Positions 776-61,620 are shown, counted from the stretch's first letter. The stretch is 64,000 bases of DNA from Amoebidium appalachense (GCA_963693365.1 CAVNZM010000002.1:3922259-3986258), one strand, 5' to 3'. The notes: generated by a model from the sequence alone, not told the origin. Program-made: numbers and translations.

Positions 776-3700
776 CTTTTTAGGAAAGTAGTCATTCAGC
801 CGTTCGAGAATGTACGAGCCCATGCCTGAACCCGTGCCCCCGGCAATACCGTGGCACAGTTGGAATCCCTGCATGGTGATTGGTTGGCAGTTAAAGTGTG
901 CAATATACGGACAATGGCCTCATATGCCTAATCTCGGGGGTGTATTAAGGGGAGATGGGGGATTGGAGGGGAGGGGGGGGGGGGGGGGGGGGGGGGGGGG
1001 GGGGGGAAGGGGGGGGGAGGGGGGGGGGAGGGGGGGAGGGGGACGGGGGAGGGGCATACACACGCCCTTTTTGGTGAGGGGCGGACGTGCGAGGAAAGGG
1101 TGTGCATACATGCATGTGTCACCACACACCATGCACGCACACACGAACTACCGCACACCAACGAGACACACACACACACACATGTACACACACACACACA
1201 GGTGCACACACACACACACACACACACACACACACACACACACACACACACACACACACACACACACACACACACACACACACACACACACACACACACA
1301 CACACACACACACACACACACACACACACACACACACACACACACACACACACACACACACACACACACACACACACACACACACACACACACACACACA
1401 CCTCCAAGCTGTCGCTCCCATCCGCCTCCCTATTTATAATATCCATAATCACGTCGATCACACTCTCACACTGGCTGTACCCCTGAGCCCATATGTTGCC
1501 TGCCCCCCCACCATGTTTTGCCACAAAGATATTCTCCCGGTTGTACAGGTTGGCATATGGTGACGTCAATATGTTGTTGATCACCTGTTGCGTGAGGGGG
1601 GGACCGGGGATGGAGGAGGGGAGAGGGGGGAGGGGGGGGGGGGAGGGGAGGAGGGGGGAGGGGAGAGGGGGGGGAAGGGGGAGGGGGGGGGGGGGGGGGC
1701 ATGTTGTGTGTGTGTGTGTGTGTGTGGCAAGGGAGGGAGCGGGAGGGAGGGACGGTAGGGGAAGGTGTATGTGTCGGGGGGGGGGGGGGGGGAGAAGGGG
1801 GGGGGGGGGGGGGGGTCAGTGTTGAATGGAAACCACGACCTCACCACCCCTCCCTCCCCCCTCCAACACTAACCCCCCCCCTCCAACACTGACCTCCCCC
1901 CCTCCAACACTGACCTCCCCCCTCCAACACTGACCTCTCCCCCCCTCCAACACTGACCTTCCCCCCATTTAACATTGACCTCCCCCCTCCAACACTGACT
2001 TCCAACACTGACCTCCCCCCTCCAACACTGACCTCCCCCCTCCAACACTGACCTCCCCCCCTCCAACAATGACCTCCCCCCCTCCCCACCTCTCTCTCCC
2101 CATCCCGGCGGGTCTGCTCTTCCCTGATCCCATCTGCTTGCTTAACAGCTCTCAATCACACACACACCCCTCCCCCCTTCAACACACACACACACACACA
2201 CACACACACACACACACACACACACACACACACACACACACACACACATACCCAAGAAAGCATATCAATCTTCCTACTCCAATGTTTATTTTTTGCTTCT
2301 CATCATTTGAACTCCAAGATTGTGCACTCCAACGTAAACCCCCTTCCCCTCCCCTCCTGCCCTTTACTTCCCCTCTCTTTCCATTCCCCCCACCTTCGCG
2401 TCAAAACCCCTCCACACCCACAACCACACAGGCACAAACACGCACGCACACACACAATCACACACACACACAAATACACACACCCGCGCGCGCGCGCACA
2501 CACACACACACACACACACACACATGCACACACACACACACACACACACACACACATGCAGTGACACACGCGCGCGCGCACACACACACACACACACACA
2601 CACACACACACACACACACACACACACACACACACACACACACACACACACACACACACACGCCCCCCCCCCCCCCCCCCCCCCCCCCCTCTCTTTAACA
2701 CACATCCACGCCCACACCCACCCACTCAACCATCCCACCCACCCACACACGCACGCGCGCGCGCTCACACACACACGTGTACACGCGCGCGCACACACAC
2801 ACACACACACACACACGTGCACCCACCCTGGGCTCCAGATCCATTAGCACCGCCCGGGGGACAAAATGATCATCGTCAGCCTGTGGACGGACACAGTCAG
2901 AAAAAACGACGGGGAGTTCCGTCATGCGTCGAGGGGTAGGTGCGTGGGTGGGCAGGGGGGGGGGGGGGGGGGGGGGGGGGGGGGGGGGGAGGAGGGAGGG
3001 GGGGGGGGGGGGGGGGGGGGGGGGGGGAGGGGGAGGGGGGGGGGGGGGGGGGGGAGGGGGGGATATACAATGTGTTACATAGTAGGAAGTGCACGTTCAC
3101 GACGGACTGCACAAGGCAGGATTTAGCAGAAAAGCGCTAGGAAAAGAGATTTGATTACGACATAAGTGAACCCATCCTCTGGTAGAGGGACAAGCCATCC
3201 ACAGCAACCGAGCTCCGGCTTGGATGCCCTTTCCCCTCTCCTTCCCCCCCCCCCCCTCCCTCCGACCATCTCCCCCCCACACCCCCACCCCCACTCCTAT
3301 TCCCACCTTCATTGCTTTTCGTAGCCCCAGACCACCCACCCATTCACCTCTCTTCCCCTCCCTTTTGTTTCAATCTACCACTCAACTCCTCATGGGAGCC
3401 CGCACAACGACGTTCCCCTCCAACCCCCCCCCCCCCCCCCCCCCCCCCCGCAAACCCCGTTCGCCCCTCCCCCCCCCCCCCCTGCCCCCTCCCTCACCGC
3501 ACTTCCTCTCAACCAGTCAACACCACAGCGGGGAGTATGCACATGTCCATATCTGCCCCCCCCCCCCCCCCCCCCCGCCTCCCCCCAGCCATCTGCACCT
3601 ACCCACACACACACGTGTGCACGCAAGCGCCTACACACCCCTATGCATGCACTTCTGTACATGCACTTACACCCTAAAACGCGCACGTGCAAGCATGCCG

Positions 3701-4648
3701 GAAGGACACGACAACACACACACACACACACACACACACACACACACACACACACACACACACACACACACACACACACACACACACACACACACACACC
3801 TGATAGAAGAACACATCCTTCCTGTCTGTTCCCTCAACAGCAAAGTCCTGGAGCACCCCATCTGGACTTATGCCATGCTCCTGACATAGCTTTTTCCAGA
3901 ACGCTGTCCCAACTAGAACACAAAAAAATTGCACGTAGTCAAGGGGAAGCATGTTTTACAAGCAAAAATAGGCATACATTGGGCACGGGGGGGAGGGTGT
4001 GGGAGGGGGGAGGGGAGGGGTTGGGGTGGGTGGGAAGGGGGGGGGGAGGGGGGGGGGGGAGGGGGGGGGGGGGGGGGGGGGGGGGGGGGGGGGGGGCAAT
4101 GATGGACAAGAGGCGACGGAGCTAATGGGAGAAACAATAGGCAGTGTCGTGCCCAAGAAAGATGAGTATATTTAAAGTCATGAAAATGAAGCAGGTGAAC
4201 AAGGTTTCCAATGAGGCTACACTGGAGAAAACATGTGCGAAGGGGGGTGGGAGTGGGCCGGGGGGGGGGGGGGGGGGGGGGGGGGGCAAGCTCTGGCAGC
4301 GTTAGGGAAACGACGCTAAGCCCGTACGGGGGACCACCAGCCCTGGTCCAGAAAGAAACAAATCACAGCCTCAAGAGAGAGAGGGAGAGGAGAGACTTAA
4401 AAGTTGAAGCGACTTTAGCAATAAAAGGGGCAGCTGATGAGCAATTAGAAAAAGAAAACTAAACTGTGCGTGGGGCGATGTGGGGTAGTCATAAGGGTAC
4501 GAGACAGGGGGAGATGAGGATGGGCTGGGCAGGGCTGGGCGGGGGAAGGGGGGGGGGGGGGGGGGGGGAGGGGGGGGGGAAGGGGGGGACGGGGCTCACT
4601 TTGATTGCCACACTGGCCAACCTGCAGGGTGATGATTTCTCGTGGCAT
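776..4648 (-). CDS. TUBG1: Gamma-tubulin, 5' part (3' exons lie left of the window)
   Basis: Exons 4600-4648, 3800-3912, 2827-2880, 1402-1584 and 776-868 splice in frame. Product: [134 protein letters not shown]. Introns are GT-AG except a predicted GC donor at 775. Confidence 0.96.
1858..2085. repeat. ~20-bp minisatellite (CCCTCCAACACTGACCTCCC, ~10 copies), intronic
   Basis: Direct tandem repeat read from the sequence. Confidence 0.9.
3086..3112 (-). repeat. Copy of the dispersed intronic element (gamma-tubulin intron 2)
   Basis: Minus strand GTGCAGTCCGTCGTGAACGTGCACTTC. Confidence 0.75.
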
Positions 4649-59846: not shown

Positions 59847-61620
59847 ATGCCGCACAGGGACCACACTTCGCACAAGGAGGTCAAGGATGACCGCCACAGC
59901 AAGACGGGCGTGCAGGGTGACCCCAAGAAAGGTATTTGCGCGTGTAAAACACCTGCTTTTTTTTGTTTGTTTGTTATGGTTTTTTTTTTGGTTTTTTTTT
60001 TTGGGGGGGGGGGGGGGAGTTTGCATCTCAAACATATTTCGCTCCTGGAAGACACACCGTTTCCCAATATATCGACTGTGTAAACCTGGAAGACACCTGG
60101 TTTGCTTTTTTTTTGTTTGTTAGTGTGTATCCGTGTATGTGTCTTTGTCTATGTGCCTGTTCTTTTTCTTTCTTTCTTTTTTCTTTTCTTTCTTTGGAAG
60201 AGGAGGGGGTCGGGTGGAGGGGGGGGGGGGGGGGGGGAGGGGGGTTTGGATGAATCTCAAACACATGTTTTGTTGCAGGAGGTGCTGGGGGCCACTACAC
60301 GTGGGGTAAGGCCGGAGATGAGGTCGATGCCGACTCGGGTGTGAACGACCCCAAGGACCCCAACTATGAGGGTGATGAGAAGGCCCCACTGCCTCCTGTC
60401 GTATGTGCCCTGCCCCCCCCCCCCCCCCCCCCCCCCCCCCCCCCCCCCCCTCCTCAATAGGCATAGGAACCCCCCTAATGATGGGCTCTGTTGAAGTGTC
60501 TTCTGCCTGCACGCTCAAATTGTTTGATTTAGGGTTTGTCATTTTTGTGACGTTCTGTAGTTTGTTCTTTGGTGCCTCCTCCATATCTCCAACCCTCTAA
60601 CGCATACATCCTCCCCCCTCCCCCCCACCCACTCACCCACCCCCCCACCCCCTCCCCCGTCCTCTTCCCTTCCCTTCTTCCCCCTTCCCGTCAGCTGGGT
60701 TTTGTGTGAGTAGGTCGAAGCTCGGGTACTGTGGATGCCATGGGTTCCCACCAAGGATAGGCTCTACTTATGATGCATGTTGTTTTTGTGTGTTCTTTCT
60801 GCCAGTCTACGTTGTGTTGTCCGTTGTGAATGTGCACTTCGTGATCTCTCTGCAATGTATTCATATGATCCCCCCCCCCCTTCCCCTCCCCCCACGAGGA
60901 AAAAAAGAAACAAACAAAGAAAGAAAGAAGAGAAAAAATTGAAAAGAAAAAGAGAGAAAGAAAGGGGGAAAACTTGATAAACCACACACACACACACACA
61001 CACACACACACACACACACACACACACACACACACACACACACACACCACGACCACCACCACCACTACCGCATATTTCTCACACACTGTGTTCGTTTTGC
61101 ATCCCGTTCCCCCCCTCCCCCCCCCCCCCCCCCCCCCCCCCTACACACACACACACACACACACACACACACACACAAATCCCCCAGGATGCATTTTGCT
61201 GATGTTACATACTGTGTACGTTATTGTTGCATACTTGAATGTTTGCATTTGCATGTGTTCTGCACCGTGTTTCCTGTCATGTGGTTGTGCTTCGTATCGC
61301 GTTCCGCAATCTACCCCCCCACCGCCACCGCCACCGCCACCGTCGCCACCCACCCACCCACCCACCCACCCAAAAAAACGTACACACACACACACACACA
61401 CACAAGAAGCTCGAGGGCAGAAGTTTGTGTGTGATGTGTTTTGAAAAGGGGCAGGGGGGCGGGGGGTATGCCTTTGCATGTACACAGTGTTTAGAGGGCA
61501 AATCCGTGTCACATTTCTGACTTTCCTTCCTCTCTGCAGCCCGACCGACAGCTGTCGTTTGAGCAAGTGAGCAAGGAGGTTGCTGAGAAGTCGGCCACCA
61601 CTGCCCAGCCCAAGGCCTAG
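59847..61620 (+). CDS. 95-aa protein with a PDCD4-N-terminal / HABP4-Stf2-like motif and no MA3 domains
   Basis: Exons 59847-59931, 60279-60400 and 61540-61620 (288 nt, GT-AG) encode MPHRDHTSHKEVKDDRHSKTGVQGDPKKGGAGGHYTWGKAGDEVDADSGVNDPKDPNYEGDEKAPLPPVPDRQLSFEQVSKEVAEKSATTAQPKA*. A 5'-UTR acceptor is likely at 59830. Confidence 0.78.
60814..60840 (+). repeat. Copy of the dispersed intronic element (intron 2 of the 95-aa gene)
   Basis: GTGTTGTCCGTTGTGAATGTGCACTTC. Confidence 0.8.

What the first reader, a model, noticed from the sequence alone, without database searches (positions are those of the whole stretch)
3086..60840. Dispersed ~100-nt intronic element, always sense to the host pre-mRNA, in all five intron-containing genes
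Seen: the core GTGTTGTCCGT(C/T)GTGAAT(G/A)TG(C/T)ACTTC occurs on the minus strand at 3086 (gamma-tubulin, -), 23109 (GTPBP1, -), and 36000, 42730, 43108, 43264, 44736, 45416, 45581, 47325 and ~49644 (RasGEF, -). It occurs on the plus strand at 12407 (Tom20-SET, +) and at 60814 and ~61267 (95-aa gene, +). All ~14 copies are in transcript-sense orientation, and I saw none in intergenic DNA or exons. Similarity extends upstream (..gtgtgtacttc..) and downstream to (A/G)CATT, often then CTAAC, then a C-run. Most copies lie ~100-450 nt upstream of the acceptor. Inference: a randomly inserting element should be orientation-neutral, so this looks like an RNA-level module. Candidates are a mobile branch-point or splicing-enhancer cassette, an intron-encoded small RNA family (the terminal ACA-NNN recalls H/ACA RNAs), or an introner relic. 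Gamma-tubulin intron 2 (FYQ|ADD) appears to be an old intron position, which would favour colonisation of existing introns.
Basis: partly seen in the sequence, partly recalled or inferred. Interest (0 to 1): 0.8.

Follow-up and report, generated by a model that had tools for sequence, protein, structure and literature searches.

The report
One-way intron repeat with branch-point end
In this stretch of DNA from a single-celled relative of animals, decayed copies of one repeat sit inside introns, all facing the same way as their genes and ending in a motif that looks like a splicing signal; it is likely an old jumping element whose backward-facing copies were likely removed because they would disturb splicing.

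Summary
The repeat is real. The host is likely Amoebidium, an ichthyosporean. The unit is about 200 nt, not 100. Copies share the 3' end, are 5'-truncated, 16-41% diverged, and sit in C/CA tracts, sometimes in partial tandems. A DNA run lays 2,266 contigs on one 1-kb stretch, and 95 contigs give a consensus end ...ACACATTCTAAC plus a C-run. It is not an introner, not an H/ACA RNA, and has no conserved fold. C-run targeting alone does not explain the strand bias (12/97 sense versus 0/63 antisense C-runs, p=0.004). The 101-nt body has 0 AG in sense and 10 in antisense. Best reading: an old retroposon working like (C)n-targeting Penelope-like elements, filtered by splicing selection, and possibly used as a distant branch point in 3 introns (not significant, p=0.25). 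Thirteen introns cannot tell a 100% bias from about 80%.

The parts
3063..3233 (-). Element copy with most of the 5' head, in gamma-tubulin intron 2 (ancient intron position); 182 nt from the acceptor, AG-free path, but a separate proximal YTRAY at -17
   Evidence: (48.5 bits leave-one-out)
12269..12446 (+). Near full-length copy in Tom20-SET intron 9, directly after a (CA)n run; its head folds as a long stem
   Evidence: (86 bits)
12446..12481 (+). Partial tandem duplicate of the 3' tail, followed by a C-run; 57 nt from the acceptor (weak)
   Evidence: 3.1 bits; E 0.035
22555..22597 (-). Short 3' fragment ending in CTAAC, GTPBP1 intron 7; the only YTRAY in the AG-free zone (-181)
   Evidence: 9 bits; E 0.003
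23090..23195 (-). 5'-truncated copy, GTPBP1 intron 6
   Evidence: (27.6 bits)
35982..36076 (-). 5'-truncated copy ending in CTAAC plus C-run, RasGEF last intron; the only YTRAY in the AG-free zone (-149)
   Evidence: (29 bits)
38705..38795 (-).
   Evidence: (11.7 bits)
42349..42400 (-).
   Evidence: 4.4 bits
43085..43167 (-). Downstream copy of a head-to-tail pair, ends in CTAAC plus C-run at -132, RasGEF intron 10
   Evidence: (23 bits)
43246..43344 (-). Upstream copy of the pair, separated from the next by a C-run and (CA)n
   Evidence: 40 bits
44721..44897 (-). Near full-length copy, RasGEF intron 9, 43 nt from the donor; also present in a second strain about 1% diverged
   Evidence: 58 bits
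45414..45434 (-). Core fragment, RasGEF intron 8 (weak)
   Evidence: 3.5 bits; E 0.02
45562..45616 (-). 55-nt 3' fragment between a C23 and a C40 run, 45 nt from the donor of RasGEF intron 8; keeps CTAAC but has 6 AGs downstream
   Evidence: (25.7 bits)
47308..47345 (-). Decayed 3' fragment, RasGEF intron 6 (weak)
   Evidence: (4.8 bits)
49627..49683 (-). 5'-truncated copy, RasGEF modelled intron 2
   Evidence: 21 bits
60693..60864 (+). Near full-length copy, intron 2 of the small 95-aa gene
   Evidence: 88 bits
61225..61313 (+). Second, decayed copy in the same intron
   Evidence: 9.5 bits
260..4648 (-). Host gene: gamma-tubulin, first 6 exons
5916..13438 (+). Host gene: Tom20(MAS20)-SET, 11 exons
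16147..27263 (-). Host gene: GTPBP1-like GTPase, 17 exons
35676..51105 (-). Host gene: RasGEF, 21 modelled exons (further 5' exons not modelled; a few boundaries approximate)
59847..61620 (+). Host gene: 95-aa protein, 3 coding exons, no Pfam hit on the two exons scanned

Best explanation
The repeat is a decayed family of about 200 nt whose copies share their 3' end, are cut short at the 5' end and lie in C-rich tracts of existing introns, and it is likely a retroposon that was copied into (C)n/(CA)n tracts and then likely sorted by selection on splicing. Shown: the family, its shared 3' end (TTCTAAC plus C-run), the truncation pattern, high copy number, intronic sense position in this window, and the AG asymmetry. 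Inferred: a reverse transcriptase from an unseen partner element (Penelope/Chlamys-like most likely, LINE/SINE-like second) primes on the C-rich RNA end at C/G tracts on either strand. Antisense copies put a G-run and about 10 AG per 100 nt into introns of median 560 nt, or break sense G-runs, and are purged. Sense copies are AG-free and end in a branch-like motif plus pyrimidine tract, so they are tolerated, and in a few introns they may serve as a distant branch point.
For: Model start positions of the 17 hits run from 8 to 178, and 16 of 17 end at 198-208 of 209. 13 of 17 are followed by flanks at least 56% C and 8 of 17 are preceded by flanks at least 44% C. Partial head-to-tail tandems occur at 12269/12446 and 43246/43085. 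DNA run X9 lays 2,266 and 707 contigs on two short stretches, with summed depth 127,000-234,000 against 11-15 on unique DNA, and 95 plus 39 contigs give the consensus 3' end. Divergence from the window consensus is 16-41%, with no covariation. Chlamys elements show frequent 5' truncation, partial tandems, (C)n and (CA)n targets, no discernible TSD, and non-autonomous forms (PMC8557442). Cores precede 12 of 97 sense C-runs against 0 of 63 antisense ones, p=0.0036. The consensus body has 0 AG in sense and 10 in antisense; introns overall have 1,065 AG against 1,690 CT. Precedent: sense bias of human Alu within 20-200 bp of exons, attributed to cryptic acceptors in antisense Alu (PMC3088655).
Against: No autonomous partner, reverse transcriptase or empty site was seen; no genome was available, and copy 44734 is present in the second strain. 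No TSD could be read. CpG sites are not more decayed than other C/G sites (22/87 versus 84/294), although the genus methylates CG (PMC11244446). 17 of 17 is stronger than most published TE biases, though 13 introns only bound the sense fraction above 0.79. Selection against antisense copies was not measured. The contig depth is not a copy number, as the tool itself states. An abundant RNA starting at the head is unexplained in detail.
Confidence: 0.58

Rival explanations
1. A mobile, positively retained distant-branch-point cassette: copies are kept because their CTAAC plus poly-C end is the working branch point and pyrimidine tract of introns whose 3' ends have filled with microsatellites.
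For: CTAAC plus C-run is the family consensus end. 8 of 17 copies have no AG between their end and the acceptor, and in GTPBP1 i7, RasGEF i10 and RasGEF i20 the element's CTAAC is the only usable YTRAY in that zone. Element-linked C-runs lie further 3' in the intron than other C-runs (p=0.012).
Against: 9 of 17 copies have 1-24 intervening AGs. Only 4 of 17 keep YTRAY, 3 of 7 where needed against 1 of 10 elsewhere, p=0.25. AG-free status is 6/14 against 17/79, p=0.10. 40 of 53 introns have no copy, and some copies lie 43-45 nt from the donor.
Confidence: 0.15
2. Orientation is set at insertion: the element's RNA, possibly an intron RNA trimmed at its own branch point, is reverse-transcribed and integrated in a transcription- or splicing-coupled way that allows only sense insertion into introns.
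For: All copies end at a branch-like motif. snoRNA retroposons whose 3' ends fall at or near the branch point, and which often lie sense in introns, are described (PMC1687206). 0 of 63 antisense C-runs carry a core.
Against: No mechanism for target-strand choice was shown. RNA contigs carry copies next to 650-1,500 nt of high-depth unique sequence, so some copies likely lie in mature transcripts. An abundant 483-nt contig runs about 280 nt past the supposed branch-point end.
Confidence: 0.12
3. A family of intron-encoded small RNAs (H/ACA-like or other) released from introns.
For: Sense-only intronic position; an ACA near the 3' end; high summed depth on the element in two RNA-like runs, 4,000-13,000 against 76-980 on host exons.
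Against: No ANANNA H box in the consensus. No consensus fold. Folding z-scores are -1.9 to +1.0. The 3' stem shows no covariation above shuffles. No credible Rfam match on three copies at E up to 10. Ragged 5' truncation and 16-41% divergence.
Confidence: 0.07
4. Relic of an introner: each host intron was created by the element and later swollen by microsatellites.
For: GTPBP1 intron 6 is not a widely shared position (113 homologues run through it, 1 stops there).
Against: Copies lie 43-1,123 nt from donors and 57-675 nt from acceptors. Intron ends are not more alike than background (0.34 versus 0.28-0.31). Four introns hold two copies. Gamma-tubulin intron 2 is ancient. This fails the definition in PMC9860276.
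Confidence: 0.04
5. 3' ends of a non-autonomous Helitron-type DNA element.
For: The consensus ends in CTAA, with an imperfect hairpin just upstream. Helitron end rules are recalled, not from a call.
Against: The end is followed by a C-run, not T. The hairpin is weak and not G+C-rich. It needs the same selection step to explain the strand bias.
Confidence: 0.04

Closest known systems
Chlamys/Naiad Penelope-like elements and their non-autonomous forms such as MRC1 (PMC8557442)
   Same: Frequent 5' truncation, shared 3' end, partial tandems, insertion in (C)n and (CA)n, no readable TSD, very high copy number; in Chlamys-3 transcription starts inside the terminal repeat and runs on beyond it, as the 483-nt contig here seems to.
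   Different: No RT or GIY-YIG ORF seen here. The paper has no mention of strand bias in introns ('orientation' 0 hits) or of ichthyosporeans. This element ends in a branch-like motif.
Alu SINEs near human exons (PMC3088655)
   Same: Sense bias close to exons, attributed to selection against cryptic acceptors on the antisense strand.
   Different: Alu has an A-tail and a 7SL origin (recalled), and its bias is local to 20-200 bp from exons; here the tail is poly-C, no Rfam family matches, and all 17 copies are sense.
snoRNA retroposons, type 2 (PMC1687206)
   Same: Retroposed RNAs often found sense in introns, some ending at or near a branch point.
   Different: They carry an intact snoRNA, an A-rich tail and a 14-bp TSD; none of these was found here.
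Introners (PMC9860276)
   Same: Families of similar sequence found in introns.
   Different: Introner similarity reaches both splice boundaries; here it is internal, the case that paper filters out as secondary insertion.
Non-LTR retrozymes (10.64898/2026.07.22.740005)
   Same: Short non-autonomous derivatives of Penelope-like elements; the head here has a partial hammerhead-like geometry.
   Different: They are tandem arrays with type I hammerheads, enriched between genes; this element is dispersed, intronic, and has no complete hammerhead core.

Membership tests
Penelope-like element (Chlamys/Naiad type, non-autonomous) | Frequent 5' truncation with a shared 3' end | tested here: met
   starts at model positions 8-178, 16 of 17 ends at 198-208
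Penelope-like element (Chlamys/Naiad type, non-autonomous) | Insertion into (C)n or (CA)n microsatellites | tested here: inconclusive
   13 of 17 C-rich downstream, 8 of 17 C-rich upstream; without empty sites tail and target cannot be told apart
Penelope-like element (Chlamys/Naiad type, non-autonomous) | Partial tandem copies forming pseudo-LTRs | tested here: inconclusive
   two head-to-tail pairs, which could also be local duplications
Penelope-like element (Chlamys/Naiad type, non-autonomous) | 3' end shared with an element encoding PLE reverse transcriptase and GIY-YIG endonuclease | not testable with these tools
   no genome held; collection scans found no true copy
Hammerhead ribozyme (as in PLEs and retrozymes) | Three stems around CUGANGA and GAAA cores | tested here: inconclusive
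   a long stem closes right after GAA in the heads, but the core is only approximate in one copy, stem I does not form, and Rfam gave no hammerhead hit; core rules recalled
tRNA-derived SINE | Pol III A and B boxes in a tRNA-related head | tested here: inconclusive
   by eye, A-like and B-like motifs about 21 nt apart (consensus recalled); ARAGORN found 0 genes; no Rfam tRNA hit
tRNA-derived SINE | A-rich or simple-repeat tail flanked by a target-site duplication | tested here: inconclusive
   the tail is a C-run; flanks are too low in complexity to read a TSD
H/ACA snoRNA or AluACA-like RNA | H box (ANANNA) between two hairpins | tested here: not met
   no ANANNA in the consensus; motif recalled
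H/ACA snoRNA or AluACA-like RNA | Conserved hairpin-hinge-hairpin fold | tested here: not met
H/ACA snoRNA or AluACA-like RNA | Discrete RNA ending 3 nt after ACA | not testable with these tools
   only contigs were available
Introner | Similarity reaching both splice boundaries (within about 10 intronic nt) | tested here: not met
   definition from PMC9860276
Introner | Host introns at new positions | tested here: not met
   gamma-tubulin intron 2 is shared with 28 of 29 exon ORFs; GTPBP1 intron 6 is not widely shared
Helitron | 3' CTRR after a G+C-rich hairpin, inserted between A and T | tested here: not met
   CTAA is present but followed by a C-run; rule recalled
Distant branch point | Branch motif followed by a pyrimidine tract and an AG-free zone to the acceptor | tested here: inconclusive
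   met in 3 of 17 copies; enrichment not significant
Distant branch point | Lariat formed at that adenosine | not testable with these tools
   no raw reads offered

The most novel reading that the evidence does not exclude
A retroposon whose own 3' end is a branch point plus poly-C tract has spread in tens of thousands of sense-only copies through the introns of an animal relative and now supplies distant branch points to a sizeable share of them, so that a mobile element installs the core 3' splicing signal in old introns and its spread is tied to splicing.
Probability: 0.2. Interest if true: 0.8.

Novelty: new variant of a known kind. Interest (0 to 1): 0.47.

Why it matters
If the ordinary reading holds, this is an undescribed, very abundant repeat family in an ichthyosporean and a clear natural test of how short introns filter transposon orientation, perhaps also a sign of (C)n-targeting Penelope-like elements in unicellular holozoans. 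If the copies serve as branch points, a transposon would be donating the core splicing signal to pre-existing introns at genome scale, which differs from introners (which make new introns) and from Alu exonisation (which makes new exons). Both are cheap to test on a public assembly plus lariat reads.

Tried and rejected
No whole genome is held, so all orientation statistics rest on one window. Exact-pattern scans of metagenome and viral contigs gave 0 hits; an 18-nt scan gave 40 loci, none scoring above 2.7 bits on the element model. The run finder reported no RNA holder listed; runs X10 and X8 were treated as RNA because they contain spliced contigs. Rfam on the whole window showed only microsatellite-driven miRNA noise among the 150 of 176 rows displayed and nothing credible on three copies. 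ARAGORN found 0 genes. RNAalifold predicted 0 pairs; the 3' stem is 72% paired, equal to shuffles; none of the 11 copies folds below z -2. C-run targeting as the only cause of the bias was rejected. An antisense solo-LTR reading (G-run as polypurine tract) was considered and dropped, because the C/G-run stays attached to nearly all copies. A U2-like look in the head (recalled sequence) was not supported by Rfam. CpG decay was uninformative. Pairing of 5' (GT)n with 3' (CA)n within the same intron was not supported (0 of 53 at both ends; p=0.55 by halves). Three look-ups of earlier findings returned nothing. My spliced GTPBP1 model still has boundary slips of a base or two (6 stops), and a few RasGEF exons are approximate; this does not move any copy out of an intron.

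
Full report
Observation. 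An iterated profile and a 209-position model without the C-tail give 17 hits of 3 bits or more; the reversed window scores at most 0.3 bits. Because 11 of these were training copies, I ran leave-one-out: 11 of 11 were recovered, 10 at 21-88 bits and one at 9.5, with nulls at most 5.4. A calibrated Infernal model found, beyond its 14 training copies, five hits under E 0.1: three sense intronic fragments and two weak hits outside introns (34232, 62282); the best antisense intronic hit had E 0.12.

Host and genes. The closest protein to a GTPBP1 exon is a 654-aa transcriptome protein labelled Amoebidium parasiticum. By tblastn it hits 16 of the 17 modelled exons, mostly at 94-100% identity. The host is therefore likely Amoebidium, an ichthyosporean. 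One published Amoebidium genome is 202 Mb, about half transposable elements, with CG methylation (PMC11244446, section 6). Gene models from coordinates gave 53 introns, median 560 nt. Pfam supports tubulin, SET, RasGEF and RasGEF_N, and MAS20 weakly. Spliced contigs in two RNA-like runs cover RasGEF exon 44941-45159 and Tom20-SET exon 12539-12651 and continue into neighbouring exons. All 17 copies are intronic and gene-sense, in 13 of 53 introns (two-sided p 0.0002 for 13), but 13 introns bound the sense fraction only above 0.79.

Anatomy. The unit is about 200 nt. Four copies keep a 5' head; the others begin at model positions 86-178, and 16 of 17 end at 198-208. Mean pairwise identity is 0.59 and divergence from the window consensus is 16-41%. 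13 of 17 copies are followed by C-rich flanks and 8 of 17 are preceded by C- or CA-rich flanks. Two head-to-tail pairs occur. DNA run X9, about 1% different from the window, lays 2,266 contigs on 44480-45515 and 707 on 12262-12660, with summed depth up to 127,000 and 234,000 against 11-15 on unique DNA. The tool warns this is not a copy number, but it shows a high-copy family; the window density is 170-270 per Mb, tens of thousands of copies if typical (extrapolation). Loose ends of 95 contigs give the consensus end ...ACACATTCTAAC plus C-run, so the branch-like motif and the C-run belong to the family. In RNA-like runs the element lies next to long high-depth unique sequence (1,647 nt at 1,292x; 883 nt at 597x). 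One 483-nt contig in run X15 starts at the head and runs about 280 nt past the element's end; its variants match the dominant ones at 4,000-5,600x in X10 and X8. I read this as a candidate source transcript; strand and ends cannot be read from contigs.

What it is not. Introner: copies lie 43-1,123 nt from donors and 57-675 nt from acceptors, intron ends are not alike, and 28 of 29 short homologous ORFs break off after FFYQ, so gamma-tubulin intron 2 is ancient (the search was limited to 22-72 aa, which favours exon-sized hits). GTPBP1 intron 6 is not widely shared. H/ACA RNA: no H box, no consensus fold, z-scores -1.9 to +1.0, no covariation in the 3' stem, no credible Rfam match. The head can form a long stem closing after GAA, which hints at a hammerhead, and has A/B-box-like motifs by eye; both rest on recalled consensus rules and are inconclusive.

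Why one orientation. If the element simply targets C-runs, antisense copies should appear at sense G-runs. With a leave-own-copy-out matrix, cores precede 12 of 97 sense C-runs, 0 of 63 antisense and 0 of 26 non-intronic (p 0.0036 and 0.069). So targeting can explain the intergenic gap but not the strand bias. The 101-column body consensus has no AG in sense and 10 in antisense. In introns this short nearly every site is within about 300 nt of an exon, and human Alu shows a sense bias at 20-200 bp from exons for a similar reason (PMC3088655, passages). I therefore infer purging of antisense copies. This step was not measured.

Branch-point use. 8 of 17 copies have no AG between their end and the acceptor, and in three introns the element's CTAAC is the only usable YTRAY in that zone (-181, -132, -149). 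Element-linked C-runs lie further 3' than others (p 0.012). Against this, 9 of 17 have 1-24 intervening AGs, only 4 of 17 keep YTRAY (3/7 versus 1/10, p 0.25), and AG-free status is not enriched (6/14 versus 17/79, p 0.10). Co-option in some introns is plausible; a general role is not shown.

Comparison. It works most like Chlamys-type Penelope-like elements: 5' truncation, partial tandems, (C)n and (CA)n targets, no TSD, non-autonomous forms, and a start site inside the terminal repeat (PMC8557442, abstract, passages and sections 6, 9, 15). Membership is not established, since no RT partner could be sought. Type-2 snoRNA retroposons are a precedent for retroposed RNAs ending near a branch point (PMC1687206, passages). 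Introner criteria come from PMC9860276 (passages) and retrozyme features from 10.64898/2026.07.22.740005 (passages; bioRxiv supplements are closed). I found no description of this family in ten searches (listings and abstract starts seen). The Amoebidium genome paper has no SINE or Penelope mention in its main text, and its supplement reports repeat classes only in a figure I could not see; its automatic repeat library may hold the family unnamed.

Verdict. A real, high-copy, undescribed repeat with a striking strand bias, best explained as an old C-tract retroposon filtered by splicing (0.58). It is a new variant of a known kind; interest 0.47. The bold reading, a mobile branch-point donor, has probability about 0.2.

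Noticed in passing
window introns (53 modelled): Simple repeats are polarised on the sense strand: (GT)n 35 in 5' halves against 10 in 3' halves, (CA)n 18 against 36, G-runs 31 against 19. This recalls GT/AC-paired fish introns (recalled), but the two do not co-occur per intron.
   Followed up: partly
window introns, e.g. 1585-2826, 6055-6556, 16246-16741, 21136-21808: Long AG-free zones (180-270 nt) with a YTRAY far from the acceptor also occur in introns without the element, so distant branch points may be common in this genome.
   Followed up: partly
window 39014-39285: A 272-nt element with 25-nt terminal inverted repeats (96%) in RasGEF intron 16, MITE-like.
   Followed up: no
window 34351-34531: Intergenic inverted repeat, 41-nt arms, 83% complementary.
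   Followed up: no
window 31593-32605: Intergenic region with 66-nt inverted arms and repeated G/C-rich motifs, possibly a DNA-transposon remnant.
   Followed up: no
window 25-314 and 25330-25481: Tandem duplications that repeat an exon 3' end together with its donor site: 112-nt unit x2.6 in gamma-tubulin and a 62-nt-offset repeat in GTPBP1 intron 3; these may give alternative donors.
   Followed up: no
window 1853-2081: 20-nt minisatellite x11 in gamma-tubulin intron 3.
   Followed up: no
window 5916-13438: Tom20(MAS20)-SET domain fusion gene; SET passes the Pfam cut-off on one exon, MAS20 is weak.
   Followed up: partly
window 55798-57450 (-) and 29381-30712 (+): Two intronless ORFs in an intron-rich genome: one with a PIN_11 domain (E 7e-13), one with a weak 7tm_3 hit.
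   Followed up: partly
window 369-775, 19449-19787, 41577-42223, 49077-49304: Four modelled GC-AG introns among 53; the one at 49077-49304 has an uncertain boundary.
   Followed up: no
run X15 record of 483 nt, laid on window 12344-12383 and 44761-44879: A contig that begins at the element head and continues about 280 nt past its end; its variants dominate both RNA-like runs. Candidate source transcript, not identified.
   Followed up: partly
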